A DNA stretch of 64,000 bases from Nitrospirota bacterium (GCA_016201865.1 JACQCA010000012.1:4447-68446), one strand, 5' to 3'; numbered from the stretch's first letter, positions 32,967-60,517 are shown. A program made the numbers and translations. Notes: generated by a model from the letters alone, not told the origin.

Positions 32967-34006
32967 TTCTCCTCCGCATCGGTATGCGTCAATCGTCGCG
33001 GGCGAGACCCGTCCCGGTCCATGACATAGACCTCCGAATTCCCATCCCGTGTTGAAGTAAACGCGATCTGTCTTCCGTCCGGAGACCAGACCGGCCAGAA
33101 ATGATCGCCAGGAGCGGTCGTCAGCGGCGTGAGTTCCGAGCCGTCCGGTCTTATCCGGTAAATTTCCTGGCGGCCGCTTCGATCGGACACAAAAAGAAGA
33201 TCGCGGCCGTCCGGAGACCAGACCGGTCCGTCATCCGCGGCCGGATGGTTCGTCGCGTTCCGCGCCCCGGATCCGTCGGACGCCATGACATAGATCTCGC
33301 GATTCGCGTCCCGTTCCGAAACGAACGCGATCTGTCTTCCGTCCGGAGACCAGACGTGGCTGTCCATGCCGTCGCTCGCCGAGTTGTACGTCAGCCGGAT
33401 CTGATTGGAACCGTCACGGTTCATGACATACACCTCAGGGTTTCCATCGCGGGTCGAGACAAACAGAATTTTCGTTCCATCCGGAGACCAAACCGGGATG
33501 GCATCCATGGCCGGGTCATGAGTCAATCGCCGCTCATGAAGCAAGGATGTTCGTTCATCGCCGCCGACGTCCACCGCGTAGATCTCTTCATTCCCATCGC
33601 GCAAGGATGTAAAGACGATCCGCTCCCCCTCCGGCGACCAGTCCGGATCCTCCTCATCGGCCTCGGTGTAGGTCAGCCGCGTCTGCCCTGTGCCGTCGGC
33701 CCGCATCAGATAAAGCTCCTTGTTGCCGTCACGGGTCGAGATGAAGGCGATGCGCGTCCCATCCGGAGACCCGGCCGGCCAGATGTCATCCCCGCGGCTT
33801 CGGGTCAGTCGTTCTTCTTTTCCGGTCGTCGCATCCATGAGATAAATTTCCCAGTCTCCGTCCCGGTTAGAACCGTAAACAAGTCGCGCATGGGGAGCAG
33901 GAGATTCGGAATGGATCCGAACCCCCATGCAGCCTGCCATCATCAATCCCAAAACCCCCAACCATTTCAGCACCGCTCTCGACTCTCGACTCACACTATT
34001 TGTCAA
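32945..34006 (-). CDS. TolB-like PD40 beta-propeller lipoprotein (353 aa)
   Basis: Lipobox LMMAGCMG. Blades DGDWEIYLMDATTGKEERLT, DGNKELYLMRADGTGQTRLTY, DGNEEIYAVDVGGD, DGNPEVYVMNRDGSNQIRLTY, DGNSEVYVMDRDGSRPRRLTH. Confidence 0.8.
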   Translation of the reverse strand: MTNSVSRESRAVLKWLGVLGLMMAGCMGVRIHSESPAPHARLVYGSNRDGDWEIYLMDATTGKEERLTRSRGDDIWPAGSPDGTRIAFISTRDGNKELYLMRADGTGQTRLTYTEADEEDPDWSPEGERIVFTSLRDGNEEIYAVDVGGDERTSLLHERRLTHDPAMDAIPVWSPDGTKILFVSTRDGNPEVYVMNRDGSNQIRLTYNSASDGMDSHVWSPDGRQIAFVSERDANREIYVMASDGSGARNATNHPAADDGPVWSPDGRDLLFVSDRSGRQEIYRIRPDGSELTPLTTAPGDHFWPVWSPDGRQIAFTSTRDGNSEVYVMDRDGSRPRRLTHTDAEEKWVSWGR

Positions 34007-34872
34007 TCCTTAGCGCATCGAAACCCGTAGGTATAATCCGAGTGCCAACCGTCCGCCTCACGGGGCCCGACGGTCGGAAGAACCGCTAATCGCGCGGCGG
34101 TTCTTGAAAAAGCGGCGTCGGTTAAATACGATCCGCCCCGGATGATCTTGAACGATCCGGACCCGCTCACGGCTCGCGCGGTGTTGCCCGGATAGGACCG
34201 ATAGACCGTCGCCGTCCATTCTCTTACGTTGCCGGCCATATCGTACACACCGTACGGGCTGAGATCCTCCGGATGACTCCCAACCGGCGCCTTCCAACCC
34301 TTCACTCCGTAATGCTCTTGTCCTTCCGGCGACTTCCAGCGCGCACTGGTCTCCAAGGTATTCGCGCGACCGGGTTCAAACCGATTGCCCCACGGCCAGA
34401 GACGCCCATCCGTCCCCCGCGCGGCCTTTTCCCATTCCGCCTCGGTCGGCAGGCGTTTCCCGGCCCACCGGCAGTATTCGACCGCATCAAACCAGTCCAC
34501 ATCCGATACGGGATAGGTTTCATATCCTTCCGGAAAGGAATCCTCGCGGCCCGCTTCCTTCCAATAACCCGGATACTTTTTTGAGCCGGTCGCCTTCAAA
34601 AATTGAAGATACTCCGCCTCCGTAATCTCATAGCGGTCGATATAAAACGACCGAACATACATCTTTTGCTGCGGGAGCTCATCCACCCCGATCTCAAATC
34701 CGATCTTCCCATCCCGGTCGGTGCTGCCGATCAGAAACGAACCGCCGGGGACATAGACCATAGGAGTCATAGGAGTCGCAGAGCGAGGGTTCGGAACGGC
34801 GGGGGTCATAAAGACACACCCTCCCAGAACCGGCCACAAAAGCAGCATCGTTAACCGGATTCTTTTTCTCAT
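34003..34872 (-). CDS. FGE-sulfatase (formylglycine-generating enzyme) fold protein, secreted, lacking the catalytic Cys pair (289 aa)
   Basis: Signal LTMLLLWPVLGGC. Diagnostic FGE-family motifs RLPTEAEWEKAARGTDGRLWPWGN and IRGGSY. The C-terminal region reads RGGSYLTDAAFSRTAARL, without the CxxxxC of catalytic FGEs; it ends GFRCAKD. Confidence 0.8.
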   Translation of the reverse strand: MRKRIRLTMLLLWPVLGGCVFMTPAVPNPRSATPMTPMVYVPGGSFLIGSTDRDGKIGFEIGVDELPQQKMYVRSFYIDRYEITEAEYLQFLKATGSKKYPGYWKEAGREDSFPEGYETYPVSDVDWFDAVEYCRWAGKRLPTEAEWEKAARGTDGRLWPWGNRFEPGRANTLETSARWKSPEGQEHYGVKGWKAPVGSHPEDLSPYGVYDMAGNVREWTATVYRSYPGNTARAVSGSGSFKIIRGGSYLTDAAFSRTAARLAVLPTVGPREADGWHSDYTYGFRCAKD

Positions 34873-35700
34873 CTAATTCGCATCCTTCGCGCACCGGAAA
34901 CCGAAATCCGGCTGGGCGAGATCGGCCAGCCGGTAATGCCGGTGGGCCGCACGCGCAAACGGATTCGCCGGCATTTCCCATGAACCGCCCCGCAGGATCC
35001 GAAATTTCTTGTCCGGCGCAATCGTCCGGGGTGATCCCGGATAGGATTTTAGAATTGACGCGGTCCATTCCATCGCATTCCCGGCCAGATCAAATACTCC
35101 ATAGGAACTGGCGCCTTCCGGAAGGCTTCCGACCGGCGTCGTCCAGTTACGTTTCGAGTCCTCGGTGTTCATCCGCTTTAAATCCAGTTCATTCCCCCAA
35201 GGCCAGATCCGGCCGTCCGTCCCGCGCGCCGCCTTTTCCCATTCCTCCTCGGTCGGCAAGCGTTTCCCCGCCCATCGGCAGTAGGCCTCGGCATCATAGA
35301 AGTTCACGTCGATCACCGGGTGATGATCCTCCGGCGCCGGATAACCGAATTCCTTGTAGTCCTTCCAGATCGCCGGAGATTCATGACCGGTTGCGGTCAC
35401 GAACGGCCGATACGATCCGACCGAGACCTCATAACGATCGATCCAGAACGCTTTGACGGAAACCGCATGCTTCGGCATGGAATCCACCCCCACTTCGAAT
35501 CCGATCTTGCCGTCGTTCGCGTCGCTCCCCATCATGAATTCACCGGCCGGAATAAGCGCCATGTCCGACGGCGGCGGGGATGCGGAAGCGGCATCAGCAT
35601 ACTGTTGAAGTATTAAACCGGCCGAAAGCATGATCCATACTCCCACCCCCGCACCCCTTAATACTTCAACCCTTGGACTCATTTTAGATCCGCCGCGCAC
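34873..35700 (-). CDS. FGE-sulfatase fold protein, secreted, non-catalytic paralog (about 270 aa)
   Basis: RLPTEEEWEKAARGTDGRIWPWGN, LRGGSW...FARAAHRHYR, no Cys pair, ends FGFRCAKD. The likely start is the Met at ~35682 (MSPRVEVLRGAGVGVWIMLSAGLILQQYADAA), overlapping the upstream gene by 4 nt. Confidence 0.8.
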   Translation of the reverse strand: MRGGSKMSPRVEVLRGAGVGVWIMLSAGLILQQYADAASASPPPSDMALIPAGEFMMGSDANDGKIGFEVGVDSMPKHAVSVKAFWIDRYEVSVGSYRPFVTATGHESPAIWKDYKEFGYPAPEDHHPVIDVNFYDAEAYCRWAGKRLPTEEEWEKAARGTDGRIWPWGNELDLKRMNTEDSKRNWTTPVGSLPEGASSYGVFDLAGNAMEWTASILKSYPGSPRTIAPDKKFRILRGGSWEMPANPFARAAHRHYRLADLAQPDFGFRCAKDAN

Positions 35701-36503
35701 CGAAAACCGATCGACCGATGCCTTTTCCCGGGCTCGCGGGCCATGCTGCGACTGGCCGATCGGGCATATGGTTCGCCCGGCAAGGTGTAGGCGCCGCCTT
35801 TGACGACCTTGTTTTTGCCGAACGCGTTCCGAACGAGTTTACTCCCCGGATAGGCCTGATACCAGTCGGCCGTCCATTCGGCCACATTACCGGCCATGTC
35901 GTATACCCCGTACGGACTGACACCTTTCGGAAAGCTGCCCACGGGAAGCGTGCCCGCCGCTTTATACTCTTGAACATTGGCCTTTTGCGGATCGAACATA
36001 TTTCCCCATGGCCAGATCCGACCGTCCGTGCCGCGCGCAGCCTTTTCCCACTCCGCCTCGGTGGGCAATCGCATCCCGGCCCATTTGCAGTAAGCATCCG
36101 CATCGTCCCATGACACATAAATCACCGGATGGTTTTCAAACTCCTTCGGAACGCCGCCCTCGCGGGCCCATGGATAAATCTCCGGGAACCGCGGATCGCC
36201 GGGCGGCTTTCTTCCGGTCGCTTCGATAAATTTTCGATACTGCTTTGCTGCGACCTCATACCGGTCGATCGAGTACGCTTTCAGATCCACCGCGTGCTGA
36301 GGCAGCTCGTCCACCCCCACCGTAAAACCCACGCGACCGTCTTTGGGCTCGCTTCCCATCAAAAACGTCCCGGCCGGAATCGGCACCATGTCGGCTGTAG
36401 GTTGCGAGCGGGCCTGCCCCCCGAAAAGCAATGAGCACGTTACCGCTTGAGTCATGAGCAGACTCCACTTGAATAATGTTCCTCCACGACTCACAACTCT
36501 CAA
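35679..36503 (-). CDS. FGE-sulfatase fold protein, secreted, non-catalytic paralog (about 274 aa)
   Basis: RLPTEAEWEKAARGTDGRIWPWGN, VKGGAY...YARSASRSMAREPGKRHRSIGFRCAAD, no Cys pair. The track start is TTG; an ATG (MTQAVTCSLLFGG) preceded by GGAG is an alternative start. Confidence 0.8.
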   Translation of the reverse strand: MRVVSRGGTLFKWSLLMTQAVTCSLLFGGQARSQPTADMVPIPAGTFLMGSEPKDGRVGFTVGVDELPQHAVDLKAYSIDRYEVAAKQYRKFIEATGRKPPGDPRFPEIYPWAREGGVPKEFENHPVIYVSWDDADAYCKWAGMRLPTEAEWEKAARGTDGRIWPWGNMFDPQKANVQEYKAAGTLPVGSFPKGVSPYGVYDMAGNVAEWTADWYQAYPGSKLVRNAFGKNKVVKGGAYTLPGEPYARSASRSMAREPGKRHRSIGFRCAADLK

Positions 36504-36528: not shown

Positions 36529-39500
36529 TTACCCGCTCGTTCCCGGGTTTCTTCCTCCCGCGCACCACCGGGCGTTCGGCGTGCCGGTGTTGCTCGACTG
36601 ATAAGCGCAGGAATCCATCACTTCGTTATGACAACGGAGGTAGCACCGGAAACTGGTGCCGTCATAGAACCACATCGGCTTCTGGGCCGTGGTCCCTTCC
36701 GCCTGAGGACCGAAATTAATCAGATGCGTTCCGACCACCCCGTCCGTCATGCCGTCCACGCTGTCGGGCGGCAGCATCCCGCCGCGACCGTCGCCGAAGA
36801 TGGTATTGAGCGCTTCGACATTCGAATGGACATTGTAGTGGCATTCATGGCACATCGCGCCGGTCCACCGGAGGTGATACATATGCAGATTGCCGTTCCA
36901 CCAGGAATCCACACCGCCTGAACTTGCCGCCGTATTCAGACCGAAGAAATGGGTCCAACTCCGATCCTTATCCAGGGATGGGGTACCCGATTGACTATCA
37001 ATCGGGTTTCCGGCCGAAGGGTCGAACCCGCGGCGATCGTGGCATTGGAAACAGAGAAGAAATTTCCTAAAGTGGGTCGGATTGATTCCTCCCCCGCCTC
37101 CGGCGATGGCATGGGAGGGTGTTCCTCCGGGAGCGCTATACCCATCGCCCTCCTTCCCCGCGCAACTGATCTGAGGATTGTTCTGTTCAAAACACCGGAT
37201 AGGACTTAGAATATCGGTATCGTAATTGGCACGCAGGATGCGCCGGTTAATCGAACCGTGCGGACCGATCGGCTTGCCCGGCCGATCCGTCACGTAATTA
37301 AAACCGATGACGGCATTTAAGTCCGGCCAGACATCCGTAGGTCTCAGATTGGATTCGGTCAGCGGCCCACGGATGCCAGAATTATCTTGCGCCGCCGTTG
37401 CAGCATCGAGATTGGCCTGGTAAATATTGGAGTAAACGTCATACGCATTGTTGTTGTGACAATCCGTGCATTGAATCGTCAGATTGCTCAACGCGGCCGA
37501 GGCCGCGGCCGGATTGCCGGGAGCAGGCACGACGTTGCCCGGCCCGTTGCCGCAGTTTAAGCTAAAGGCAACGGCCAGTTGGTTGCATAACTGAAAGGCG
37601 CCGTTGCGACCGGGTTTTACCACGGGATGGTAGGCCGGGTTTTTTATTTGCTGGGTATGTGAAAAGACCACTTGGCCATAGCGGGTCAGATCGATGCTCA
37701 ACATCGCAGGCGTTTCGACATCGGCCGTTTGGGGATTCAGTTCCCGCCATTTGTTGCTGAAGCCGCGGAACGAGAAGGCGGTGCCCGTGGCCCCATTGGT
37801 CGGATCGGTCCTGGGTGAAAACAGGGTCGTCTTGTAAGAGGCAAAACCATCCGGCACCGCAAGGCTGGTCACATCGTTGGGGTAGCGCAGGTTGGGCGTG
37901 CCTGTATCCGGACCGAAGACTTTTTCATAGCTGTTGCCGTGGCAACGGAAACAGACTTCGTAGACGTAGGGATCTCGATTGGCTGAGGTGCCGTCGACCG
38001 TGGTGTCCCTTCCACAGATCACATAGCCGGGCAGACACCGGCTTACCACCACGGGCCGCGTCCCCGTGATGTCGATGCCGACCCCCTTCGCCCCCTTCAA
38101 TCGTGCTCCTTGTCCGTTCGCGCCGGGACTTCCGATTCCGCCCGGAGGATTCGGGGCGCCATTGTAAGACAGCGCCGCCAAGTTGGGACTGTTCACTTGG
38201 TGGGGGTTGTGGCAGTCCACGCATTCCACATGGGTCGTATCAAGCGTCGTGATGCCGGGCGTCGTCTCGTTGTTCACCGGAACAAGCGCGGCTCCCTCGC
38301 TCCTGAGCTGGACTCCTTCTTGGGAGCGGGATATGATGACCGGCTCATGCCCGCCGGCCAACTGCAGACACATCGCGCTTCCCCCTCCCGATCCTCCCAA
38401 GCAGATCGCGCTGTCTTTGGCAAATTCGCTGTAGATATCGGGAGCGACGCGCGCCGAACCGGAACTGCCGCAGGCGCCGGACGTGTTGGTTCCGTCGCAG
38501 AACCGGTGATTCACATTTTGGACCGTGGGATCGCCGGCCGGAAGGAAGACGTTGGACACCGTTTGGTTGTTGGGCGAATGACAGAGGAAACAGGTGTTTT
38601 CCACGGCATCCCCGGCTCCAAAGGCCGTGACGCCTTCCCGGTGAAGCCTCTTCGCCCCCTGAGCGGTGTGGGGATCATGACAGTTTCGGCAGGCATACGC
38701 CGCAACTGTGTGGCCTCCGTCAAAATCATACGGGCTGCTCGCGCCGGGATAGGCCGCATGAACGGCCTGGCTGATATCATGCGTGCTGTTATCCCAGCCG
38801 GGTTTGCTGTGGCAATAGAGGCAGATGATTTGGCCGGCGGGAGCCACACGAGCAGGCTCGCCCACTAAATATCCCGTCTCGGTCGCGTCCTGGAACCGCG
38901 GCGCCCGAAGAAACTTGGGGTAGGTCACCGCATGGGGATTGTGGCAGGAGGTGCATTGGACTTTGTTGAAGTCGAGGGGGTCCGCGGGGTTGTTTCCCGG
39001 ATACCGTTTCACACCGGTCTGGTATCCCCCGGCCGGGGCCAAGGGGGTAATGGAGCTCAGAGCGGCGGGCGGTCCGGGATCCACCAGCTCCGCATCCACA
39101 TTGACCGCGAGGTTCGAATCAAACGAAAACGAGATCGGATGGTCGTTCTGAAGATTGGTGCCGAGCACGCGCGTGTCGCCGGTCAGCAGTCCCGCCCCAA
39201 CGGCCCCGGCTTGAGTAGACATGGCCCCGACTCCTAAGAAATCCGTCGTGGGCGTCTCTGTGCCGTATCCCCCCGATCCCGGTTTATTGATCACGCTGCC
39301 GATGGCGATCACCCCGTCGTGACACGAAAGACACAACCGGGAATAGCCGGTCGGCTTGCTCGGATCGTTCAGCGCTCCTTCGAATGAAAAGCTCCAGGCC
39401 TGATCATATAAGACATACGCCGTGGTATCCCGATAGGAAAGGTTCCGGTTCCAGATCGGCGCCTTAATCGCAGGAAGAGTGGAAGACGCTCCGACACTGC

Positions 39501-39843
39501 TCGCCCCGTGAGGGGTGTGACAGAAAACACAGACCTCGGACTGGCTCGCCGAGTGGGTCGTCCCGAACCCTGAAGAGGAAAGGTTATGTCGGCTGAGCCT
39601 GATATCCTCCTCGACAGCCACCGTCCCCGGCGGCAACGGCGGACATTCGGAACCGCCCGGACATGTGGCCCAGGCCTGCGAGTCGAGTATTGGGAGTTGA
39701 ACGTTGAAAGTTGAGAGCAAGGCGAAAATAAACCAAAAGAATACCACCTTGCCAGCGGCTGGGGACAGATTTGAAATCTGTCCCCTCCCGATTTTCAAAT
39801 CCGTCCCCTCCCGGTTCATCACTCTTCGATCCTTCCCTTTCAT
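36529..39843 (-). CDS. multiheme c-type cytochrome, 1104 aa, 11 CXXCH plus 1 CXXXCH heme-binding motifs, signal-anchored/secreted
   Basis: Motifs CVFCH, CLSCH, CTSCH, CLYCH, CRNCH, CFLCH, CVDCH, CFRCH, CTDCH, CFQCH, CHECH and CYLRCH. The N-terminal module (CVFCHTPHGAS...APIWNRNL...CLSCHDG...NDHPISF) matches the first module of the four smaller cytochromes at 57.9-63.6 kb. Strong RBS GGAGGAAGG before the ATG; hydrophobic segment VVFFWFIFALLSTF. Confidence 0.85.
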   Translation of the reverse strand: MKGKDRRVMNREGTDLKIGRGQISNLSPAAGKVVFFWFIFALLSTFNVQLPILDSQAWATCPGGSECPPLPPGTVAVEEDIRLSRHNLSSSGFGTTHSASQSEVCVFCHTPHGASSVGASSTLPAIKAPIWNRNLSYRDTTAYVLYDQAWSFSFEGALNDPSKPTGYSRLCLSCHDGVIAIGSVINKPGSGGYGTETPTTDFLGVGAMSTQAGAVGAGLLTGDTRVLGTNLQNDHPISFSFDSNLAVNVDAELVDPGPPAALSSITPLAPAGGYQTGVKRYPGNNPADPLDFNKVQCTSCHNPHAVTYPKFLRAPRFQDATETGYLVGEPARVAPAGQIICLYCHSKPGWDNSTHDISQAVHAAYPGASSPYDFDGGHTVAAYACRNCHDPHTAQGAKRLHREGVTAFGAGDAVENTCFLCHSPNNQTVSNVFLPAGDPTVQNVNHRFCDGTNTSGACGSSGSARVAPDIYSEFAKDSAICLGGSGGGSAMCLQLAGGHEPVIISRSQEGVQLRSEGAALVPVNNETTPGITTLDTTHVECVDCHNPHQVNSPNLAALSYNGAPNPPGGIGSPGANGQGARLKGAKGVGIDITGTRPVVVSRCLPGYVICGRDTTVDGTSANRDPYVYEVCFRCHGNSYEKVFGPDTGTPNLRYPNDVTSLAVPDGFASYKTTLFSPRTDPTNGATGTAFSFRGFSNKWRELNPQTADVETPAMLSIDLTRYGQVVFSHTQQIKNPAYHPVVKPGRNGAFQLCNQLAVAFSLNCGNGPGNVVPAPGNPAAASAALSNLTIQCTDCHNNNAYDVYSNIYQANLDAATAAQDNSGIRGPLTESNLRPTDVWPDLNAVIGFNYVTDRPGKPIGPHGSINRRILRANYDTDILSPIRCFEQNNPQISCAGKEGDGYSAPGGTPSHAIAGGGGGINPTHFRKFLLCFQCHDRRGFDPSAGNPIDSQSGTPSLDKDRSWTHFFGLNTAASSGGVDSWWNGNLHMYHLRWTGAMCHECHYNVHSNVEALNTIFGDGRGGMLPPDSVDGMTDGVVGTHLINFGPQAEGTTAQKPMWFYDGTSFRCYLRCHNEVMDSCAYQSSNTGTPNARWCAGGRNPGTSG

Positions 39844-39923
39844 CCTTCCTCCGCTTTTAACCCACGGGACAAACAGCCGCCATCCACTATATCACACTTA
39901 ATCCTTTCATATCGATGGTCTTC

Positions 39924-42900
39924 TCACGGACCCGGAATAATCAGCTCATATGTATTCGTATCGCCACTGCCGTTTCCGGCCTGGATGAAATAGCCTTTCC
40001 ACGGCTCTAAGATCGCCTGCGGGGCGCTGTACACATCCGGCAAGGCCGGTGCCAGATAAATATAGTTGGCGCCCTTCAATTCATAAATGGCGCCCGCGTT
40101 TTGGATCCAGTTATTGGGATAGGGATTAGTGTACGCAGCAGTGTAGGTAACACAGCTTGCGTCATTGTTAAATATTCGAACCTTACTGTTCGTTAAATCC
40201 TTCCGTGTGGTGAACGGATTGCCAATCATGTTCCAACCCTTACTCAAGTGAATGGCGAAACTGTTGGCCACACCACAATATGTCCCATAGTTCACATCGC
40301 CCGCCTGCAGCGCACGCGATCCCACCGGCACATCAATCACGGGATTGTACGGTCCGCCGATTAAGAAGTAGCCTTCGCCGGGCTGAATCAGTAACGTTGT
40401 CGTCGTAAGGGGACCGGTGGCCGTGGCATGGGCCCAAATCTCGCTTGAGGTCAGCGCCCGGTTCCAGATCGCGACTTCGTCAACGGTGCCGGCCAAGAAT
40501 TGACTTTGTGTTCCGACCGCATCCCAAGCCGCCCCGATCGTGAGATTTCTGATTGTCGTCAGATTCGCCCCGATCAGGCTTGGGTTGGTCTGATTTATTT
40601 CTAACGCACCGTCAACATACACGAGAAGTTGACCTGTTGTGCTGTTCCATGTCATGGCAATGTGATGCCACTGCCCATCATTGATTACTTTTGTGGAAAG
40701 AGCAGGGACACCGTAATTTGCTCCTGTATTGGTTGTCACACCCGAATAAATGGAAGCGCTGAGTCCATTGTCAACGACAACATTATTTAATGTTGAAGCG
40801 CCGGAGATTTGCCAGCCCGCGGTGGTGCCTGCGTTTCCTGTGCCCCGTTTTTGGACAAGCCGCCATTGAGTCCCCTGGGTCGTTTTGATCCAGCCTTCAA
40901 CCGTAAAGCTCTGGGCGTTAAAATTCAAGACATTGCCCATATCCACATATTGCGTCGCCCCGTTCAAGGAAAGGGCACTGGTGAATTTACCCGCACCGTA
41001 TGAAGGACCGCCAACTAATGTGCCGTTATTTGCATACCCGCTCGAATCCGGCGTCGGACTTCCACCATCCAAATGCCACACGCCCACGGCATCCGATGAC
41101 AGGCCGTAGCCGGTATAAGTGGCATTATAGTTTATAAAGGAGCCGTTATCGGCGTTGAAGCCGGTTGAATTCCACCGGAAGAGCTGCGGCGCCCCGCTAA
41201 TGTCATCCTCGAAGATGACCATCGGATTCGGGCTGGCCGGCTTGAGCGGCACTGAGATAAGGTTGAAGTTCGTCCGAAGCGCCGTGCGGCCGGCCTTGCT
41301 GCCGTCGGTCGTGTTGTCGCCGCAGGAGGTCGTCGTCCCGGCGCAGTATGCGACGTTGGACATCAGCGACTGTCCCGTCGGAAATCCTCGCTCATCCGCG
41401 GCCTTGAGCGCAAAGTAGTAAATCGTATTTGTTGCCAGACCGGTCACCGTAAACGTTTCGGGAGACCCGGCTAATTGGGGCGCGGGTTCACCTGTGGCCT
41501 GCACCACGCAATCTACCGGCTTGGTGGAATCGGCGCAGGCAAGGTTGCTCCAGTCCACCTGATTGGCGCCGGGAGTTCCATCCACAATCGGCAGCATGGA
41601 GTACCGCACGTCGTAACTGGCGGCCGAGCCCACACCGGGCGCATCGAAATCATCTGGCGGCGCGGTCCAAGTCAGCGTAATGGAATCTTTGCGCTGTTCT
41701 CCCTGCTTGATGGTAAGATCCGTAACCGCTGCAGGAGCCTTCGTATCCGAACTTCCGGAGGTGGGGTTCGGAGCCTGAGCCTGGTTCGAGTAGGCCGAAT
41801 TGATATCCTGCGAGCCGTCTGAAGCCGCCCACACAGGACGAACAAAAGCTCTCACTTGATAGCAATATTTCTTCCCGGGTGTAAGCCCCGTGTCGGGATA
41901 ATAGACAAGGCCGCCGGTCGACGCCGACTGAACGGTGTCGCTCAAGACTTCTTTGATCTGGGTGAAGCCCGTGGTCGTACCCGGACAGACCCCGGTCCCG
42001 GTTATATCCAACCGCTCCACTTTAAACCCGGTTTCCGGATCCGGCGGACTGTTGGCGGAGCCGGAGTTGTCCACCCAGGTCAGATTAAGCTGCGTCTGAC
42101 TTAACGTCGCATCGGGCGGATTCGTGACCGTCAGGTTCGGCGCCCTGATCTGGGAAGCGGTGGGCGCAATGGCCGCAACGGCCTTGACCGAGTCGGGATT
42201 CGCAGCCATCGCAGCGTTTACTACGAGACCGCTGGTGGCTGCGGCATGGGCCTGAATTTCAGTCAGGGTCAGCGCCCGGTTCCAGATCACAACTTCGTCA
42301 ATGGAGCCGAGGAATGGGGACATGAAACCCGTGACCCCGGACACCCCGATCTTCAGGCTCCCCGTGGTGGCCACGCGAGGTTCTCCAACAATGGCTTGCG
42401 TCGTGCCATTCCGTGCCTCATTCACATAGAAGGTCACATTCCCGCCGCTCACTACCGCGGCGACATACTGCCAGATGCCTGGCGTCAATGAAGCGCCGTT
42501 GGAGATCGTATCCTGTGATGTTGCGCTCTTTCGATGGCTGAAATTGAGCAGGCCCGCCGAGGTAATACTTAATCGATATTCCGCATCGAAATTACCGCTC
42601 GGTTGCGCCTTGGATAAAATCCACCGCGTCGCGGCAAAATTAGTCGGATTCACCCATGCTTCAAGCGTGAGATCGCCGGTCAGTTGCAGGGGGGCCGCGT
42701 TCGGCACCTCCACATAATCATCCACGCCGTCGAAGGAGAGCGCGTTGACGAATCCTGATTTACCGGTGGTCCATGTAGGCATGGTAGAGACTCTGGTAAA
42801 GCTCAATTCATCCACCCAGCCATTGCCTGCAGGAGTGCCATCCGCAAAGCATCGGACATTAACGCTTGTCGTCCCCACCGGAATGAGTACAGTCTCAGTT

Positions 42901-45900
42901 GCAAACGTCCAATCGGCGTTGACATCCAGCCGTATGCCAGAAGAATCGATCCCTGTGCCCTGCACATCGCATTGCAAAAACTTATTCGTGCTGGTCAGTG
43001 AATTTCTCAACCAACCGCGCAGCACATATTGAGCATTGGCCGTCACGGCGACTGCCTGTTGTCTACCGAATGCCGCAGAGGTGCCGTTAAAGACAAGTTT
43101 CATGCTCTGCAAGCCGCCGTGTTGCACGGTGGCGTCCACATTTGACGAAGTGCCGGTGCCGATGACAACAGTCCAACTCGTCGGAGCCCCGGAAGTGGGA
43201 GTTTCAAAGCTGGGGTTTAATAAGAGGTTGGTTGCCGAAAGATACCCCGTATTGTTGTTGGTCGTTCCATCAGAAGTTGTCACGCCACTGCCCTCATCAA
43301 AATGCCACAGGCTTGCAGCAACACCCGATGTACAGGCCGAGGTGGTCGGGACGATGTTCACAATGATCTGCTCAGTCACAGCCCCAGAGAGCGGTGGTGT
43401 CGCCTTCAAGGTATACATCGCCGAAGCCCCCGGCAATATACTTCCTGTCGGATAGGATCCGTTGGATGTCTCGGTTGTGCCGTCGGTTACAGAGACGGTC
43501 CAGTTCGTGGGAGTGATCCAACTTAACGTGAATGTCGTCGCCGTAATCTGCTCGTTCTGGACCGATAACGCATAAGAAGACGTCGCGCCGGGCGTCACGG
43601 TCAGCGTCTGCGAGCCTCCGAGCCCGCTCCCCGTAGCGTCGTACACATTATCGCCGTTGCCGCCGATGATTCCATCCGCGCGGCAGGGAGCCGTGAAATC
43701 AGCATCCGCCGGAGTGGTTGGCGGACTGCCGTCGCTGTTGCTTCCGAACGAGACCCAGCCGCTGATTCCATCCGAACGTGCCGTGTCATCCAGCGCCCGC
43801 GCGCGCCAGTGATAACTTCCGCCCAAGGTCAGCCCGTTGACCGCTATGGCTTTGACGCCCGGCGCACCGTAAGTTGTCGAAGAAGGATTATAATGCGTCG
43901 CCGTTCCCGTAAAGGACGCCCCGACCGGCTGGACCTCGATTTCCAATCGAATATTGTTGGTCGGAAGCGTGTTCGTATCCGATACGGCCGCCTCAAGGCA
44001 GATGCCGGATGTGCTGATGACCCCTCCTACGGCCACCCCGGCTTCATTGCCGTCGCACGACCCATCATAGAACCGTTGTAGGAGGGAGATAACCGGCGTC
44101 GCATTCACCACCATAAAGTCCGTGTTCCCCGATGTCCCGAACTCGGTCCAGCCGGTGAACCCTCCCGCGCTGTCCACCGCGCGGTACTTCCAATGATAAC
44201 TCGTCCCATAGGACAACGACCCCACTTCGACCTTTGCAACCGTCCCGGACTTGACCGCAAGGCTGCTTGCGGTGACGTTACCGATAAAGGTCGAGCTCAT
44301 CGGCACGACCTCCACCTGCAACTGGAGCTCCTGAGGCGGGAGGGTATTGACATCCACCAGCGTCGCATTCATGCAGATGGTTTGCTGTAAGATGGCGCCC
44401 GCCGCGGCGGCGCCCACCTGCTCAACCACCGTCGCTTCATTCGCATCACACGAACCGTCATACACCCGCTGCCGGACCGTCGCGGCATTAATCGTGGGCG
44501 TTGCATTCGTCACGGTGAAATCGGTATTGTTCACCGTCCCGAACTCGGTCCAGTCGCTGGCCCCGCCCGCGCTGTCCACCGCGCGGTACTTCCAATGATA
44601 ACTCGTCCCATAAGAAAGACTGCCCGTATCAAAAGCGCGGGTATAGTGGTCGGTGATTTGGTCCGGGTTCAGGGGAATGTTGAAGATGGCCACTTCGTCC
44701 ATGCGGCCGTCGAATGGCCAACCCGGCAAGTCCGGACGGTATCCGATATCAACCGTATCGACTGTATCCCCAACACCTCCCGTAAAGGTCCCGGTCGCAT
44801 CGAGGATTGCATTCAGATACAAATTGATATTGGTTCCGTCATACGTCATGGCCACATGATACCAGTTACCGGGAACCAGAGGAGTGCCTCCTGTGACCTC
44901 AGCGCTCAACCCAAATGCTACCCCGCCATCTCCTATATAACCAGCTAACAGTCCATCCGGTCGGACCGCGAGTACATAGTTTAACTCTTTGGCAACAATG
45001 GTCTGAGGATCTGGGGTTGGGGTCAAGGAATTGAGATTGACCCATGCTTCCACACTCATATTGGTCATCCCATCCAGGGTCGGACTATCCGGCACCACCA
45101 CGTGATCGAGCGTCGCGGCAGCGAAACTGCCCGCGGCCGCGCCCAGTCGGGATGCGATCGTAAAGGTTGCGCCATTGACGGCCGTTCCGTTGTTGACGGG
45201 GATATTGAGCGAGCTGTCCAACCAGTCATTATTCATATGCCACAAGGCCATAAGATTCGAGTTCAACACGCCGGGGCCCAAATCACCGGGGGCCAACCCC
45301 CTCCCCGGTGTCCCGGAAGGCCCTGAAACACGGGCTATCCCCCCGTCGATCACGAGCCCGCTCGTTGACGATGCCGTTCCGGTAAAGGTCTGGCTCACCG
45401 GCTTGACTTCCACCTCCAGCGTGATCGTCTGGGACGGCAGCGTGCTTGTGTCCCGCAGAGAAGCTTCAAAGCAGATATTCTGCTGAAAAATGCTGGTATT
45501 TTCGGGCACGACCGCGCCGCTTCCGTTGCAAGGAGAGGGAATGCTATTATACACCCGTTGGTTTGCCGTTCCGGCCTGAATCGTCGGCAGCGCATTCACC
45601 ACTTTGAAATCGGTGTTCCCCGACGTCCCGAATTCGGTCCAGACGCTGGCGGCATTCAACTGATCCACCGCGCGGTATCGCCAGTGATAGCTCGTCCCAT
45701 AGGACAGCGACCCCACCTCTATCGTTGCCACACCTCCGTCGCTGACCGGGCCGCTCGTCGCCACGGCCCCCCCAAAGGTCGAGGTAACCGGCTGCACCTC
45801 CACCTGCAGCGTGATCGTATCGCCCACATTGACATCCGACAGCGTCGCGTTCAAGCAGATGCTCAATTCCCCGATGGTGCCCGCCGGGGTGGCGCCCGCC

Positions 45901-48233: not shown

Positions 48234-48664
48234 TCACCACCGTAAAGTCCGTGTTCCCGGACGTTAAATACTCCGTCCAGCCGCTGGCTATTGCTTGGTC
48301 ATCCAACGCACGGTACTGCCAATGATAGCTCGTCCCGTACGACAACGACCCCGCCCGCACCCGCGCGATCTGCCCGGTGTTCACGGTGCCGCTCGTCACC
48401 ACCTTCGCCGACGCCGTGCAGGTCCCCGTCGCCGGACAGCCGCGCCGTGCAGGTCCCCGTCGCCGGACAGCCGAAGGTCGTCGCCGTCGGCTGCACCTCC
48501 ACCTGCAACTGGATTGTCTCGGCCACATGGACATCCGACAGCGTCGCATTAAAGCAGATGCTCAACTCCCCGATCGTCCCCGTGATCTCGGCCACCACGT
48601 TCCCGGCCGTCGTCGGACAACTTCCCAGGTCCTCCCGCTGCTCGACGAACGCCAGCGTCGGCGG
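47987..48664. repeat. perfect local tandem duplication inside the giant gene: 141-bp unit X (about 47987-48127 and 48303-48443) and 101-bp unit Y (about 48128-48228 and 48564-48664), plus a ~31-bp direct duplication (about 48413-48443 / 48444-48474)
   Basis: The identical peptide GCPATGTCTASAKVVTSGTVNTGQIARVRAGSLSYGTSYHWQYRALD is encoded twice (N-terminus of the 2769-aa ORF and inside the 244-aa ORF 47815..48549). TLAFVEQREDLGSCPTTAGNVVAEITGTIGEL is also encoded twice (244-aa ORF and the C-terminus of the 1519-aa ORF). Copy 1 joins X directly to Y, lacking the ~89-bp segment Z (about 48475-48563) present in copy 2. Copy 2 carries the extra ~31-bp duplicate. Both changes shift the frame; the 1519-aa ORF ends in the out-of-frame reading RLSGDGDLHGVGEGGDERHREHRADRAGAGGVVVVRDELSLAVPCVG. 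Unit boundaries +/-2 nt. Confidence 0.7.
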
Positions 48665-51600
48665 CGTATTCGTCACCTTAAAATCCGAATTCGCCTCGGG
48701 ATTCCCCCCAAAGGACGTCCAGGCGCTGACCACGTTGTTGTTGTCCACGCCGCGGTACTGCCAATGATAGTTGGTGCCGTACGTGCGCCCGGAAACAGCC
48801 ACCGTAATAACGACACCCTGGGTCGTAAAACCGGAACAATCCGGCGAACAGAACTGTGCGGTATTGCTGAAGGTCGTCAAGACCGGTTGCACCTCCACTT
48901 CCAGCCGGACAGAGTTTCCTTCGACATCGGCCACATTGGCCTCAAGACAGATGGAGGTCTCGTTAATCTCGCCCCCCACCGGCACCGTCGTTTCGCTGCC
49001 CAAACAGACTGAGTCGGCAAACACATCCACACGCTGCTGCACCGTCGAGGCGTTGATCGTCGGCGGGAAATTATTCATTCTAAAATCGGTATTGTTCGCC
49101 GCTCCAAACTCGGTCCAGACGGTGGCCGCTCCACGGTCGTCCACCCCACGGTACTTCCAGTGATAACTGGTCCCGGAGACCAGCCCGCCCACCGAAATAA
49201 TTTTAGTCCCGCCGGAGGCAAAGGAACCGAGAGGCGGTTCGGAATGCGTGGCTGTTCCAGAAAAAGTGCTGGTGGTCGGCTCCACCTCGACCTCGAGACG
49301 AACCGGATTTAGGTCCGGATCGGTTATATTCCCCTGAAGGCATATGGTGGTTGTAAGAACGTCAGTCCCCTCCGGAATGACGATCCCGCTCCCAACGGCA
49401 CAAGTTCCGTTGAAGAGGTTCCGCTGCAGCGGCGGCGACGTTGTCGTGTCGATGATCGGCGGGTGATTCGTCACGGTAAAATCGGTATTGTTCGCCGTCC
49501 CGAACTCGGTCCAGGCGCTGATTCCATCGGCACGCGTCGTATCATCCACCGCGCGATACTGCCAGTGATAGCTCGTACCGGACTGGAGCGGACCCACCGT
49601 CACCCGCGCCACAGGGGCAGACTCGGTCACGGCCGTGCTTGTCCAGTTCTGAGTACCCGAGAAGGTCGACGTGGTCGGCTGGACTTCCACCTGCAACGTG
49701 ATCGTCTGATTGCTCGTCAAACCGGATAGCGGCAACTTGTTATTGGGATCCGAAAGCGTCGCATTAAGACAGATGCTTGTCTGGTCAATTGCGCGGCCTT
49801 CCACCACGGTGACTTCCCCGGCCCCCAATCCGTCGCACGCTCCGTCATATACCCGCTGCTCGACGGCCGATGCCGTCGGCGGCAAGTTCACCACTTTGAA
49901 ATCCGTGTTCCCCGCCGTTCCAAACTCGGTCCAGCCGGTGGCCGCGTTCAGGTTATCCACCCCACGCGCCTGCCAGTGATAAGAACTGCCATAGGAACGT
50001 CCGCTGATCGTCACAATTTTTTGGCCCTGTGCCGATGTGCCGGCACAGGTGGAAGCGTCGTCGCAGAAAATATTTGTGGTGCCGTCAAAGGTAGACCCTG
50101 TCGGCTTCACCTCCACCTCAAGACGGATGGTCTGTACGGGATCGATATCGGTCACATTCACATCAAGGCAGATCGTCGTGGTTCCAACGCTGCCTTGCTC
50201 CGACACCGTGGTCTCATTGCCTTTGCAGCGTAAGCTGTTATCGAAAATCCGCTGCAGCATTGTGATCATCGTAGGAGGCAGGTTGACCGCGCTGAAATCA
50301 ATCCCAGACGGCTCGGGATTCGCCCCAAACAAGATCCAGCCGCTGGGCGCTCCCTGTTCATCCACCGCACGTGCCTGCCAGTGATATTTTGTGCCGTAAG
50401 AAACAGTAACCGGCAAATACTTGCCGGTCTGCAAGTCAAAGGAACCGGTCGTAGTAGCGGCATTGCCAAAGGTCGTCCCGATCGGCTGCACCTCCAACTC
50501 AAGACGGGTTTGCTGGGTTGAATCCGTATCGTTCACAGTCGCTTCAAGGCAGATGGTCTGCGCATTAATGCTGCCCCCCACAACCACCGTGCTCTCATTG
50601 CCTTTGCAGCGCAAGCTGTTATCGAAAATCCGCTGGTTCAGGCTGCCGGCGATGATTGTAGGCGGCACATTGACCGGTATAAAATCGACGTTCGAGGGAT
50701 AAACTGCGCCGTCATTATTCCCAAAGTCGCTCCAGCCGCTGTCTGCTCCAAAGCTGTCCACCCCACGCGCCTGCCAGTGATATTCCGTGCCGTAGGAAAG
50801 CCCTCTGATCGTCACAATTTTTTGGCCCCCTGTCGATGTGCCGGTACAGGTGGAAATGTCGTCGCAGAAAATATCGGTGACAGTGTCAAAGGGCTTGACC
50901 AACGGCTTTACTTCCACCTCCAACCGGACGGCATTACCGTCAGGATCGGTGACATCTGCGTCAAGGCAGATAACCCGCGTGTTAATGCTGCCCCCCACAA
51001 CCACCGTGGTCTCATTGCCTTTGCAGCGCAAGCTGGTATCGAAAATCCGCTGCAGCATGGCGCTGATCGCGGGCCGGGTATTACCCACGGTGAAATCGGA
51101 CGCCGCAGAAACGGTCGGAGGATTGCCGTCGCTGTTGTTCCCAAAGGAGAACCAAGATGTGGTCGTCCCCCCGGGGAAATCCACCACACGCGCGCGCCAG
51201 TGATAGCTTTTACCGTTGGCAAGCCCGGTCACCGTCACAATTTTTTGGCCCTGTGCCGATGTGCCGGCACAGGTGGAAAGGTCGTCGCAGAAAAGATTGG
51301 TGGCGCCGTCAAAGGACGTTCCCACCTCCTTTACTTCAACTTCGAGACGGACACTTTGGCCGGCGGCATCGGTCACATCCGCCTCAAGGCAGATGGTCTG
51401 TGTTCCAATGCTGCCCCCCACGGCCACCGTGGTCTCATTGCCTTTGCAGCGCAAGCTGGTATCGAAAATCCGCTGCAGCATGGCGCTGATCGTGGGAGAA
51501 GGAGAGCCTATACTAAAATCCGGATCAAACGGATCGGTATTCGTCCCAAACGAGGTCCAGGCGCTGACACCATCGGTGCGCCCCGTATCATCCACCCCAC

Positions 51601-60437: not shown

Positions 60438-60517
60438 TTTCTTCCCTCCCTATGTCGGTTCACCGTTGCCGCACGGACAACGGCTCGCCGCGCCAAAGAC
60501 AAACACACGATCTCGGT

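What the first reader, a model, noticed from the sequence alone, without database searches (positions are those of the whole stretch)
36529..39843. 1104-aa cytochrome with 11 CXXCH + 1 CXXXCH sites directly downstream of the giant surface protein and upstream of three FGE-fold genes
Seen in the sequence: twelve heme-binding motifs across 1100 aa with long Gly/Pro/Asn-rich linkers. The N-terminal module is shared with the four small cytochromes at 57.9-63.6 kb, so all five belong to one family. There is one non-canonical CYLRCH site. A perfect 10-12 bp hairpin (ggggacagatttgaaatctgtcccc, about 39761-39786) with a neighbouring 22-nt direct repeat lies inside the N-terminal coding region, before the hydrophobic segment. 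Inference: a large, probably extracellular, electron-transfer protein, possibly docking on the giant repeat protein.
Basis: partly seen in the sequence, partly recalled or inferred. Interest (0 to 1): 0.6.

Follow-up and report, generated by a model that had tools for sequence, protein, structure and literature searches.

The report
Twelve-heme UetJ-type electron-conduit cytochrome
This gene encodes an exported cytochrome with twelve heme sites that belongs to an already described but untested family (UetJ/OccP) thought to move electrons between bacteria and minerals, and its first four hemes copy the subunit of a known protein "nanowire".

Summary
ORF 36529-39843 (-) encodes 1104 aa with 11 CXXCH plus one CYLRCH, all conserved in homologues. 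There is one N-terminal hydrophobic segment with an AWA|T cleavage site. The hairpin and tandem repeat are real.

The protein is not an orphan. It is the Nitrospirota branch of the UetJ/OccP "undecaheme" family. All 11 CXXCH motifs align one-to-one with ~800-aa cytochromes from proteobacterial loci that show the published uet gene order.

The window carries the same core: an OmcE-like pentaheme, an NHL lipoprotein, three OmcE-like tetrahemes, a SurA-type PPIase, a UetC-like barrel, a second NHL lipoprotein, the big cytochrome, then three FGE-fold genes. Ca. Manganitrophus noduliformans has the identical order, with its 12-heme protein predicted extracellular.

Residues 74-347 are homologous to the OmcE nanowire subunit (PDB 7tfs, E 3e-18). 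All eight heme ligands are kept.

In the closest relatives the cytochrome follows the NHL gene directly, so the giant-protein genes look inserted. Docking on them is unsupported. The hairpin is absent from four related loci.

Verdict: a new member of a known, uncharacterised kind. The OmcE-module link yields a testable filament-adaptor hypothesis.

The parts
36529..39843 (-). Dodecaheme c-type cytochrome, 1104 aa, UetJ/OccP family (Nitrospirota branch)
   Evidence: It is 100% identical to NCBI MAG protein HY204_01520, annotated 'hypothetical'. Its 11 CXXCH motifs align one-to-one with UetJ-position cytochromes.
39667..39843 (-). Signal peptide, residues 1-59: long basic n-region, hydrophobic core 26-53, predicted cleavage AWA|T
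   Evidence: Homologues align with ...AWA|Q at the same place. The exact start is uncertain: ATG 39843 has a GGAGG 5 nt upstream; alternatives are ATG 39819 and TTG 39798.
38803..39624 (-). OmcE-like tetraheme module, residues 74-347 (hemes 1-4). Conserved non-motif His: 86, 112, 235, 304
   Evidence: Profile versus PDB: 7tfs E 3e-18 and 9yuq E 7e-19. Blastp against Geobacter OmcE E 5e-18. All 4 CXXCH and 4 further His are conserved in 16 of 16 sequences.
36532..38802 (-). Family-specific extension, residues 348-1104, carrying hemes 5-12
   Evidence: In the AF2 model most 10-residue blocks from 580 to 1090 have mean pLDDT 60-95, with dips to ~50 around 810-860. There is no match among solved structures.
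36628..36645 (-). Non-canonical CX3CH site (C1067-YLR-C1071-H1072), putative 12th heme
   Evidence: Invariant in 113 homologues. Present in the Nitrospirota, L058, L059 and L038 forms and absent from proteobacterial UetJ-type proteins.
39761..39785 (.). Perfect 12+12 palindrome; as RNA, about -24 kcal/mol in a 39-nt context
   Evidence: Not found in related loci. No Rfam match.
39770..39815 (.). 23-nt tandem direct repeat. On the coding strand each unit contains GGGAGGGGAC, the Shine-Dalgarno-like string that precedes the ATG in L007
   Evidence: An alternative pairing of repeat copy 1 with the right arm of the palindrome gives -26 to -32 kcal/mol.
35679..36503 (-). FGE-fold protein 1 (274 aa); no FGE Cys pair
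34873..35700 (-). FGE-fold protein 2 (275 aa)
34003..34872 (-). FGE-fold protein 3 (289 aa) with a lipobox (LGGC)
53607..54716 (-). NHL beta-propeller lipoprotein B (UetH/I-like). In relatives it sits directly upstream of the big cytochrome
   Evidence: It is 35% identical to the Geobacter omcE-cluster NHL protein (E 1e-65).
54716..56683 (-). UetC-like outer-membrane beta-barrel candidate (655 aa; no Pfam hit; C-terminal ...RAF)
   Evidence: hhalign probability 99.5%, E 6e-23, over 537 columns against proteins at the UetC position in proteobacterial loci. The barrel fold itself was not tested.
56793..57767 (-). SurA-like peptidyl-prolyl isomerase (UetB-like)
57915..58952 (-). OmcE/UetA-like tetraheme cytochrome (345 aa)
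59280..60437 (-). OmcE/UetA-like tetraheme cytochrome (385 aa)
60518..61618 (-). OmcE/UetA-like tetraheme cytochrome (366 aa)
61637..62761 (-). NHL beta-propeller lipoprotein A
62781..63650 (-). OmcE-like pentaheme cytochrome (289 aa)
39924..52858 (-). Giant Ig-like/LamG surface-protein gene(s): ORFs of 1519, 244 and 2769 aa, probably one gene broken by frame changes. It lies between NHL-B and the cytochrome only in this lineage
52866..53510 (-). 214-aa lipoprotein of unknown function that travels with the giant gene (also in L011, L019, L036)

Best explanation
The ORF encodes a Sec-exported c-type cytochrome with 12 heme sites. It is the large cytochrome of a Uet-type ("undecaheme electron transfer") extracellular electron-transfer cluster, in its Nitrospirota form. 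Shown here: all 11 CXXCH motifs align one-to-one with UetJ-position cytochromes. The window holds the same partner genes, namely OmcE/UetA-like tetrahemes, a PPIase, a UetC-like protein and two NHL lipoproteins. Residues 74-347 are a complete OmcE-type tetraheme module. Inferred: after export and heme attachment the protein forms a long heme chain at or beyond the outer membrane. Working with the UetC-like barrel and the NHL lipoproteins, it carries electrons between periplasmic carriers and the extracellular OmcE-like cytochromes or a mineral. The direction of flow cannot be read from this window. The family has been proposed for electron uptake in Tenderiales, Mn(III) reduction in Ca. Dechloromonas occultata and Mn(II) oxidation in Ca. 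Manganitrophus.
For: Heme sites and their conservation. Export signal and absence of other hydrophobic segments. The conserved gene order 5-heme / NHL / 4-heme / PPIase / ~600-aa protein / NHL / big cytochrome / FGE occurs in Nitrospirota loci L001, L002, L004, L006 and L007 and many more. Among 43 loci with at least 8 kb of upstream sequence, 37 carry NHL genes, 30 a small OmcE-like cytochrome and 28 the PPIase. Proteobacterial loci L083 (Sedimenticola hydrogenitrophicus), L062 and L069 show the published uetA-J order followed by genes resembling ccsBA (compared). Their 11-heme proteins align heme-for-heme with this one. The 655-aa protein is homologous to proteins at the UetC position. OmcE homology. 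Ca. Manganitrophus noduliformans genes Ga0306812_1011436 (5 hemes), _1011437 (NHL), _1011438 (4 hemes), _1011441 (NHL), _1011442 (12 hemes, predicted extracellular, about the 82nd expression percentile) and _1011443 (FGE) follow the same order. Published descriptions of UetJ and OccP.
Against: No member of this family has been purified, localised or knocked out. Extracellular location rests on other groups' predictions and on the signal peptide here. The window cluster lacks the triheme c7 genes, the cupredoxin and the ccsAB/bat genes of the type uet cluster. It has FGE-fold genes instead. I could not compare directly with Ca. Tenderia electrophaga UetJ or with OccP, because their sequences did not surface. 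The link therefore rests on loci that show the uet gene order. AF2 confidence for the N-terminal half is low. No solved structure matches the model.
Confidence: 0.7

Rival explanations
1. Filament adaptor or cap (a refinement of the main explanation). The N-terminal OmcE-like module plugs the big cytochrome onto one end of a filament, or a short oligomer, of the OmcE-like tetrahemes. His86 in the conserved (K/R)HNLS motif would ligate the open C-terminal heme of the neighbouring tetraheme. The cytochrome's own heme 4 would be satisfied internally, so the wire is extended by 8 more hemes and polymerisation stops at that end.
For: All 8 OmcE heme ligands are conserved in the module. The small cytochromes end 2 residues after the heme-4 motif, whereas here the chain runs on for 757 residues. 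Conserved histidines: the tetraheme family (n=34) has 4 CXXCH plus 4 other His. UetJ-type proteins have 11 CXXCH plus 12 other His conserved across the superfamily. That is the one-extra-His pattern proposed for a filament stopper in bioRxiv 10.1101/2025.10.22.684050. [quoted passage not shown] Here there are three tandem tetraheme genes and a single big-cytochrome gene.
Against: It is an assumption that every conserved His is a heme ligand. Which OmcE His crosses the subunit interface could not be checked because the structure paper was not held. The pentaheme family also has one extra His (5+6), so the count does not single out this protein. No filament has been seen in any Uet-type organism. 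No multimer model could be run.
Confidence: 0.3
2. Terminal metal oxidoreductase. The big cytochrome itself binds and oxidises or reduces Mn or Fe species. The extra conserved His residues and the unusual CX3CH heme would form the reactive site.
For: [quoted passage not shown] Porin-dodecaheme (PCC) complexes were proposed as the first electron acceptors in Mn(II) oxidation by Ca. Manganitrophus; whether the homologous cluster found there is one of these PCCs is my inference. The 12-heme forms have 14 conserved non-motif His for 12 hemes.
Against: There is no CXXCK or other known catalytic heme motif. Similarity to NrfA-type enzymes is marginal (E 0.003-0.8). Proteobacterial members lack the CX3CH site yet keep the rest of the protein. 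This reading is compatible with the main explanation rather than exclusive of it.
Confidence: 0.2
3. Self-polymerising nanowire subunit. The 1104-aa protein forms its own homopolymer through the OmcE-type His-to-heme hand-over.
For: It retains the N-terminal His and the complete OmcE module. Eddie et al. raise polymerisation as a possibility for UetA or UetJ.
Against: In OmcE-type subunits the heme-4 motif lies at the extreme C-terminus. Here 757 further residues follow it, so the equivalent interface is probably occupied. The His count is n+1, not n.
Confidence: 0.08
4. One reading: the cytochrome docks on the giant Ig-like/LamG surface protein encoded just upstream.
For: Giant Ig-like genes lie next to or near the big cytochrome in the window and in L002, L004, L009, L011, L013, L019 and L036.
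Against: Adjacency is absent in the closest relatives and in most loci, and the position varies between upstream of the cytochrome and downstream of the FGE genes. Nothing points to an interaction. The giant gene in the window appears broken by frame changes.
Confidence: 0.08
5. The hairpin and tandem repeat form a translational control element for the cytochrome.
For: The structure is very stable: -24 kcal/mol for the palindrome and -32 kcal/mol for the 67-nt region. An alternative pairing would sequester a Shine-Dalgarno-like GGGAGGGG and an in-frame TTG at 39798.
Against: It is absent upstream of, or inside, the homologous genes in L006, L007, L008 and L022. It occurs only once in the window. 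There is no Rfam match. The whole-region z-score is only -2.2. ATG 39843 has its own GGAGG and lies 58 nt upstream of the palindrome (about 30 nt upstream of the whole paired region).
Confidence: 0.12

Closest known systems
UetJ, the undecaheme cytochrome of the uetABCDEFGHIJ cluster of Ca. Tenderia electrophaga / Tenderiales (Eddie et al. 2022, mSphere 7:e00223-22; bioRxiv 10.1101/2022.05.06.490989); also reported in Gallionella (PMC10734462)
   Same: It has eleven CXXCH motifs with no other recognised domain, a signal peptide and a large size. Its neighbours are a tetraheme cytochrome, a PPIase, a large beta-barrel candidate and two NHL proteins. The motifs align one-to-one with cytochromes from loci that show the uet gene order.
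   Different: It has an extra conserved CX3CH site (12th heme) and is 200-300 aa longer. The window cluster has no triheme c7 genes, cupredoxin, ccsAB or bat genes. Instead it has a pentaheme OmcE-like gene, tetraheme genes in triplicate and 3 FGE-fold genes followed by a long run of beta-propeller genes. The host is Nitrospirota, not Proteobacteria.
OccP, the ~100-kDa (922 aa) extracellular undecaheme of the occ cluster of Ca. Dechloromonas occultata (Szeinbaum et al. 2020; bioRxiv 10.1101/695007)
   Same: It is a large undecaheme predicted to be extracellular, encoded in a cytochrome-rich cluster with 6-NHL-repeat proteins. A PPIase appears in the same paper's protein table.
   Different: OccP was proposed as a Mn(III) reductase in a heterotroph or mixotroph. 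The occ cluster has 19 genes, 10 of them cytochromes.
The 12-heme cytochrome Ga0306812_1011442 of Ca. Manganitrophus noduliformans Mn1. [quoted passage not shown] 2022 (PMC9040806)
   Same: The gene order is identical: 5-heme, NHL, 4-heme, (two genes not seen in the truncated table), NHL, 12-heme, FGE. Manganitrophaceae loci L026 and L031 encode proteins 35% identical over residues 102-1077 (L026) and 102-1058 (L031). In L026 all 12 motifs are in register; in L031 the gene is split into two ORFs.
   Different: The 35% identity makes it a different subclade. That paper states PCC_1 is restricted to Manganitrophaceae. Equating this cluster with PCC_1 is my inference, because the locus tags for PCC_1 were not in the held text.
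OmcE, the tetraheme nanowire subunit of Geobacter sulfurreducens (PDB 7tfs) and Desulfuromonas soudanensis (PDB 9yuq)
   Same: Residues 74-347 are homologous (E 3e-18 and 7e-19). All four CXXCH motifs and all four other heme-ligating His are conserved. The NHL lipoprotein of the omcE locus is homologous to both NHL proteins in the window.
   Different: OmcE ends 2 residues after heme 4, whereas this protein continues with 8 more hemes. The two other multiheme cytochromes of the Geobacter omcE locus (370 and 330 aa) are not homologous to that extension beyond generic heme motifs. The Geobacter locus has glycosyltransferase genes, not FGE-fold genes.

Membership tests
UetJ / Uet cluster (Eddie et al. 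2022) | Large cytochrome with eleven CXXCH motifs, no other conserved domain, and a signal peptide | tested here: met
   11 CXXCH plus one extra CX3CH. Pfam finds only generic heme-motif families. One N-terminal hydrophobic segment with an AXA site.
UetJ / Uet cluster (Eddie et al. 2022) | Sequence homology to UetJ itself | tested here: inconclusive
As a proxy, the 11-heme proteins at the UetJ position in loci with the full uet order (L083, L062, L069) align with all 11 motifs in register. tblastn gives E 1e-58 to 1e-66.
UetJ / Uet cluster (Eddie et al. 2022) | Co-located tetraheme UetA, PPIase UetB, beta-barrel UetC and NHL proteins UetH/I | tested here: met
   Window genes at 57915-61618 (tetrahemes), 56793-57767 (PPIase), 54716-56683 (UetC-like, hhalign 99.5%), and 53607-54716 and 61637-62761 (NHL).
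UetJ / Uet cluster (Eddie et al. 2022) | Triheme c7 proteins UetD/E/G, cupredoxin UetF, and downstream ccsAB-nrfG-batABD | tested here: not met
   None of these lies between 25 kb and 64 kb of the window. FGE-fold and beta-propeller genes follow the cytochrome instead. L002 and L004 have two c7 genes divergently upstream. The window ends at 64000, just beyond the pentaheme gene.
OmcE-type nanowire subunit | Four CXXCH motifs plus four further conserved heme-ligating His | tested here: met
   Residues 74-347 carry C105, C171, C297 and C341 motifs plus H86, H112, H235 and H304. These are conserved in 16 of 16 aligned sequences, including Geobacter OmcE.
OmcE-type nanowire subunit | Small subunit (~220-390 aa) ending right after the heme-4 motif | tested here: not met
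   757 further residues with 8 more heme sites follow H345. The protein contains an OmcE module but is not an OmcE-type subunit.
OmcE-type nanowire subunit | Polymerises into filaments with a His donated across the subunit interface | not testable with these tools
   This needs cryo-EM or heme-aware multimer modelling. Only indirect counts of conserved His are available.
Formylglycine-generating enzyme (the three downstream genes) | Catalytic cysteine pair near the C-terminus (established knowledge of FGE) and CxPxR substrates | tested here: not met
   Each protein has only 2-3 Cys and none forms the C-x4-C pair. No CxPxR motif occurs in the 17 window proteins checked. The fold assignment is solid (Pfam E 1e-55 to 1e-58). 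All NCBIfam equivalog scores fall far below their cut-offs.
MtrC/OmcA outer-membrane decahemes | Pfam MtrC-MtrF domain II/IV above the gathering score | tested here: not met
   20.1 bits against a cut-off of 30.
Catalytic multiheme enzymes (NrfA/ONR/HAO type) | Catalytic heme motif (CXXCK or equivalent) and significant homology | tested here: not met
   No CXXCK. PDB profile hits to NrfA are only E 0.003-0.8 over ~70 residues.

The most novel reading that the evidence does not exclude
UetJ/OccP/PCC-type big cytochromes are the missing end pieces of OmcE-type cytochrome nanowires. Their N-terminal OmcE module docks onto a filament of UetA/OmcE-like tetrahemes by donating His86 to the open terminal heme. 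The remaining 7-8 hemes form the contact to the mineral, or the connection through the UetC barrel. This would unite four separately named systems (Geobacter omcE clusters, Uet, Occ, Manganitrophus PCC) into one ancient nanowire machinery spread over at least five phyla. It would also name a candidate for the filament terminus that the OmcE structural papers say is unknown.
Probability: 0.3. Interest if true: 0.75.

Novelty: new member of a known kind. Interest (0 to 1): 0.45.

Why it matters
The family is abundant: 2611 representatives at 50% identity, and 571 tblastn-confirmed matching stretches in genomes representing GTDB species. It sits in lithotrophs proposed to oxidise Mn(II), Fe(II) or cathodes, yet it has no Pfam or NCBIfam model and no solved structure. 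It carries three unrelated names in the literature.

Two results here give a concrete structural hypothesis for how such systems are built. The Nitrospirota "hypothetical protein" is the same component as UetJ. Every member starts with a complete OmcE nanowire module.

The work also points to culturable carriers for testing: Sedimenticola hydrogenitrophicus SN1189 and Rubrivivax sp. A210. For this particular window, however, the gene is an ordinary member of that family.

Tried and rejected
1. AlphaFold2 with a 20-sequence alignment failed (mean pLDDT 32). With 113 sequences it gave pLDDT 58 and pTM 0.63, with only the C-terminal half confident.
3. The PDB profile search found only OmcE-type chains for the N-terminal module and nothing for residues 350-1104.
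4. Rfam found only two far-sub-threshold miRNA-family matches at the hairpin (E 0.25 and 0.83, bit scores far below gathering).
5. The OmcE structure paper (PMC9357133) is not held. Which OmcE His crosses the subunit interface therefore remains my inference.
6. The last homologue search, seeded with the Rubrivivax protein, returned 120 close unnamed relatives. It did not surface Tenderia UetJ, OccP or Leptothrix by name.
7. I considered homology between the Geobacter omcE-locus cytochromes (370 and 330 aa) and the C-terminal extension and rejected it. The matches are heme-motif-level only (E 1e-7 or worse).
8. I considered and rejected a true formylglycine-generating function for the FGE-fold genes.
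9. I considered a membrane-anchored topology. Only the N-terminal segment is hydrophobic.
10. Homology between the Geobacter 752-aa barrel and the window's 655-aa protein is unresolved (hhalign probability 47%).

Full report
**1. The observation**

The longest ORF on the minus strand, 36529..39843, is 1104 codons. A motif count finds CXXCH at residues 105, 171, 297, 341, 385, 418, 541, 631, 792, 931 and 998. It also finds one CX3CH, CYLRCH, at 1067. There is no CXXCK. Shuffled sequences of the same composition average 0.04 CXXCH motifs.

The protein is rich in Gly (11.3%), Pro (7.5%) and Asn (6.7%). It is 100% identical to an NCBI MAG protein annotated only as hypothetical, from a Nitrospirae bacterium (HY204_01520). 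More than 1200 homologues were scored, and those carrying source names come from Nitrospirota MAGs.

In alignments of 20 and 113 homologues, all twelve heme sites are invariant or nearly so, including C1067, C1071 and H1072. Several Gly/Pro/Asn stretches, for example residues ~550-580, are insertions specific to the closest clade. "Linkers" is therefore only partly apt.

**2. Export**

Only residues 26-53 are hydrophobic. They are followed by AWA|T, which aligns with AWA|Q or similar in homologues. There is no lipobox.

The start codon is uncertain. ATG 39843 has a GGAGG 5 nt upstream. ATG 39819 and TTG 39798 are alternatives. All three leave the hairpin inside the n-region of the signal peptide.

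**3. The hairpin**

The 25-nt palindrome at 39761-39785 and the 23-nt tandem repeat at 39770-39815 are real and not expected by chance.

As RNA, the palindrome folds at about -24 kcal/mol. A competing pairing of the first repeat copy with the right arm gives -26 to -32 kcal/mol. On the coding strand each repeat unit carries GGGAGGGGAC. In the related locus L007 that string is the Shine-Dalgarno region just upstream of the ATG. The repeat therefore looks like a local duplication of the ribosome-binding region.

The structure is absent from four related loci: L006, L007, L008 and L022. It occurs once in the window. Rfam gives only two far-sub-threshold miRNA-family matches. I treat it as a lineage-specific feature of unknown and probably minor significance.

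**4. The small cytochromes and OmcE**

Residues ~74-347 match the four small cytochromes at 57.9-63.6 kb (E 1e-21 to 4e-27). Three of them have 4 hemes and one has 5.

A profile of the family hits only two solved structures convincingly. These are 7tfs, the OmcE nanowire of Geobacter sulfurreducens (E 3e-18), and 9yuq, the OmcE bundle of Desulfuromonas soudanensis (E 7e-19).

An alignment was built from Geobacter OmcE, the window's small cytochromes, UetA-position tetrahemes and the N-terminal parts of big cytochromes. It shows all four CXXCH motifs and four further His in 16 of 16 sequences. In this protein those His are H86, H112, H235 and H304.

The small cytochromes end two residues after the fourth motif. 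This protein continues for 757 residues.

**5. Gene context**

All genes in the window lie on the minus strand. Read 5' to 3', the relevant stretch encodes:

- a pentaheme OmcE-like cytochrome
- NHL lipoprotein A
- three OmcE-like tetrahemes
- a SurA-type PPIase
- a 655-aa protein with no Pfam hit
- NHL lipoprotein B
- a 214-aa lipoprotein
- giant Ig-like/LamG gene(s)
- the 1104-aa cytochrome
- three FGE-fold genes
- about 22 beta-propeller genes

In Nitrospirota loci fetched through homologues the same order recurs, including a Leptospirillia MAG and Ca. Manganitrophaceae. In those loci the big cytochrome directly follows NHL-B. The 214-aa gene and the giant genes therefore look inserted in this lineage. 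Giant genes lie elsewhere, or are absent, in most loci.

The Geobacter omcE locus (L005) shares the OmcE gene and a homologous NHL lipoprotein (35% identity, E 1e-65). It also has a large protein ending in Phe. Its two other cytochromes are not homologous to the extension.

**6. Family identification**

A scan of GTDB species genomes returned full-length relatives in Nitrospirota. It also returned ~800-aa relatives with 11 CXXCH in Gamma-, Beta- and Alphaproteobacteria, Magnetococcales, Gemmatimonadota and others.

In L083 (Sedimenticola hydrogenitrophicus), L062 and L069 (Rubrivivax) the gene order is as follows:

- tetraheme cytochrome
- PPIase
- a ~600-aa protein, ending in Phe in L083 and L069
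- small tri- and tetraheme cytochromes (3-4 CXXCH)
- two ~300-aa proteins
- further triheme cytochromes
- an NHL protein
- the 11-heme cytochrome
- genes resembling ccsBA

This is the published uetABCDEFGHIJ-ccsAB order of Ca. Tenderia electrophaga (Eddie et al. 2022). In that scheme UetJ is an undecaheme with no other domain, predicted extracellular and bar-shaped.

The eleven CXXCH motifs of this protein align one-to-one with those proteins. The window's 655-aa protein is homologous to the proteins at the UetC position (hhalign 99.5%, E 6e-23) and ends in ...RAF.

Two other literatures describe what looks like the same system. The first is the occ cluster with the 922-aa undecaheme OccP in a Mn(III)-reducing enrichment. 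The second is the "porin-dodecaheme cytochrome c" complexes proposed for Mn(II) oxidation in Ca. Manganitrophus.

In the Manganitrophus core-genome table, the genes Ga0306812_1011436 (5 hemes), _1011437 (NHL), _1011438 (4 hemes), _1011441 (NHL), _1011442 (12 hemes, predicted extracellular) and _1011443 (FGE) reproduce the window's order. I found no paper that links Uet to Nitrospirota or that notes the OmcE module in UetJ.

**7. What differs from the type Uet cluster**

The Nitrospirota branch has a twelfth, CX3CH site. That site is also present in short forms from Gemmatimonadota and two other MAGs and is absent from Proteobacteria. The branch lacks the c7, cupredoxin, ccsAB and bat genes in the cluster. 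It is followed by 2-3 FGE-fold genes, seen in 18 of 43 loci, all but one (L038) Nitrospirota-labelled.

These FGE-fold proteins lack the FGE cysteine pair, and none of the neighbouring proteins checked has a CxPxR motif. One of them is a lipoprotein. They resemble EgtB, PvdO and GldK about equally and all far below the curated cut-offs. Their role is open.

**8. Mechanism**

*Shown.* The protein is an exported 12-site cytochrome. It is homologous throughout to UetJ-position proteins, begins with an OmcE module, and is embedded in a conserved cluster with a barrel candidate, two NHL lipoproteins, a PPIase and OmcE-like tetrahemes.

*Inferred.* It forms a long heme chain at or beyond the outer membrane. 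This chain connects periplasmic carriers to extracellular cytochromes or minerals. The direction of flow is unknown.

*A sharper hypothesis.* The tetraheme family has 4 motifs plus 4 other conserved His (n=34), as expected for a polymer in which one His is handed to the neighbouring subunit. UetJ-type proteins have 11 motifs plus 12 other His conserved across the superfamily. The 12-heme forms add H499 and H1006.

One extra His is what the 2025 OmcE-bundle preprint predicts for a filament "stopper". [quoted passage not shown] The big cytochrome fits that description, and the tetraheme gene is triplicated here against a single big-cytochrome gene.

*Caveats.* Not every conserved His need be a ligand. 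The pentaheme family also shows 5+6. I could not verify which OmcE His crosses the interface.

**9. Structure attempts**

**10. Verdict**

The docking idea and the hairpin's importance are not supported.

The gene is a new member, from the Nitrospirota 12-heme branch, of a family already described bioinformatically under three names. That family has never been characterised biochemically. It is large: 2611 representatives at 50% identity with E of 1e-3 or better, and 117 at 1e-30. The value added here is the unification of those names and the recognition of the OmcE module, which gives a testable adaptor model.

Noticed in passing
window ~850-34006, minus strand: About 22 consecutive same-strand genes encode beta-propeller proteins: roughly 15 PD40/TolB-like, plus YncE/YVTN-like, BNR/Ycf48-like, a 648-aa NHL protein and a 1050-aa Kelch-like protein. 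They lie directly downstream of the FGE-fold genes. Shorter runs of PD40/propeller genes follow the FGE genes in L006, L007, L008, L016, L017, L022 and L025.
   Followed up: partly
window 47815-48549 and the junctions at ~48233 and ~48299: The 1519-aa ORF has a signal peptide. The 2769-aa ORF has none and begins with an Arg-rich N-terminus that looks like junk. A third 244-aa ORF in another frame spans the junction and reads like a genuine repeat domain. Together they look like one ~4300-aa Ig-like/LamG giant gene broken by frame changes inside DNA-level repeats, either a pseudogene or an assembly error. Giant genes of at least 4094 and 4378 aa, both cut off by the end of the fetched locus, occur in L002 and L004.
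   Followed up: partly
window 57915-61618: The OmcE/UetA-like tetraheme gene is present in three tandem, diverged copies (40-48% identical). Most related loci have one or two copies.
   Followed up: partly
window 62781-63650 and its homologues in 20 loci: The pentaheme OmcE-like family conserves 5 CXXCH plus 6 other His and several Met. This is one more His than hemes, like the big cytochrome and unlike the tetrahemes.
   Followed up: partly
window 39824-39849: A second small tandem repeat (13 nt, 85% identical: CTTCGATCCTTCC / CTTTCATCCTTCC on the + strand) overlaps the annotated ATG and its Shine-Dalgarno. The whole 5' end of the gene is built from short duplications.
   Followed up: no
window 39886-39915, minus strand: A sigma-70-like promoter match (TCGATA, 18-nt spacer, TATAGT, with an extended -10 TG) lies in the 80-nt gap between the giant gene's stop and the cytochrome's ATG. 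The count of such matches in the region is no higher than in shuffled sequence.
   Followed up: no
L038 (contig labelled Thermoplasmata archaeon) and L019 (labelled Vicingus sp.): Uet-type clusters with a big cytochrome appear on contigs binned to an archaeon and to a Bacteroidota genus. These are likely binning errors rather than real occurrences.
   Followed up: no
L011 and L013 (same MAG, NC_groundwater_1764): One Nitrospirota genome carries at least two paralogous big cytochromes. Each lies next to a giant Ig-like gene and an FGE-fold gene, and no tetraheme, PPIase or barrel genes were detected in the upstream sequence available.
   Followed up: no
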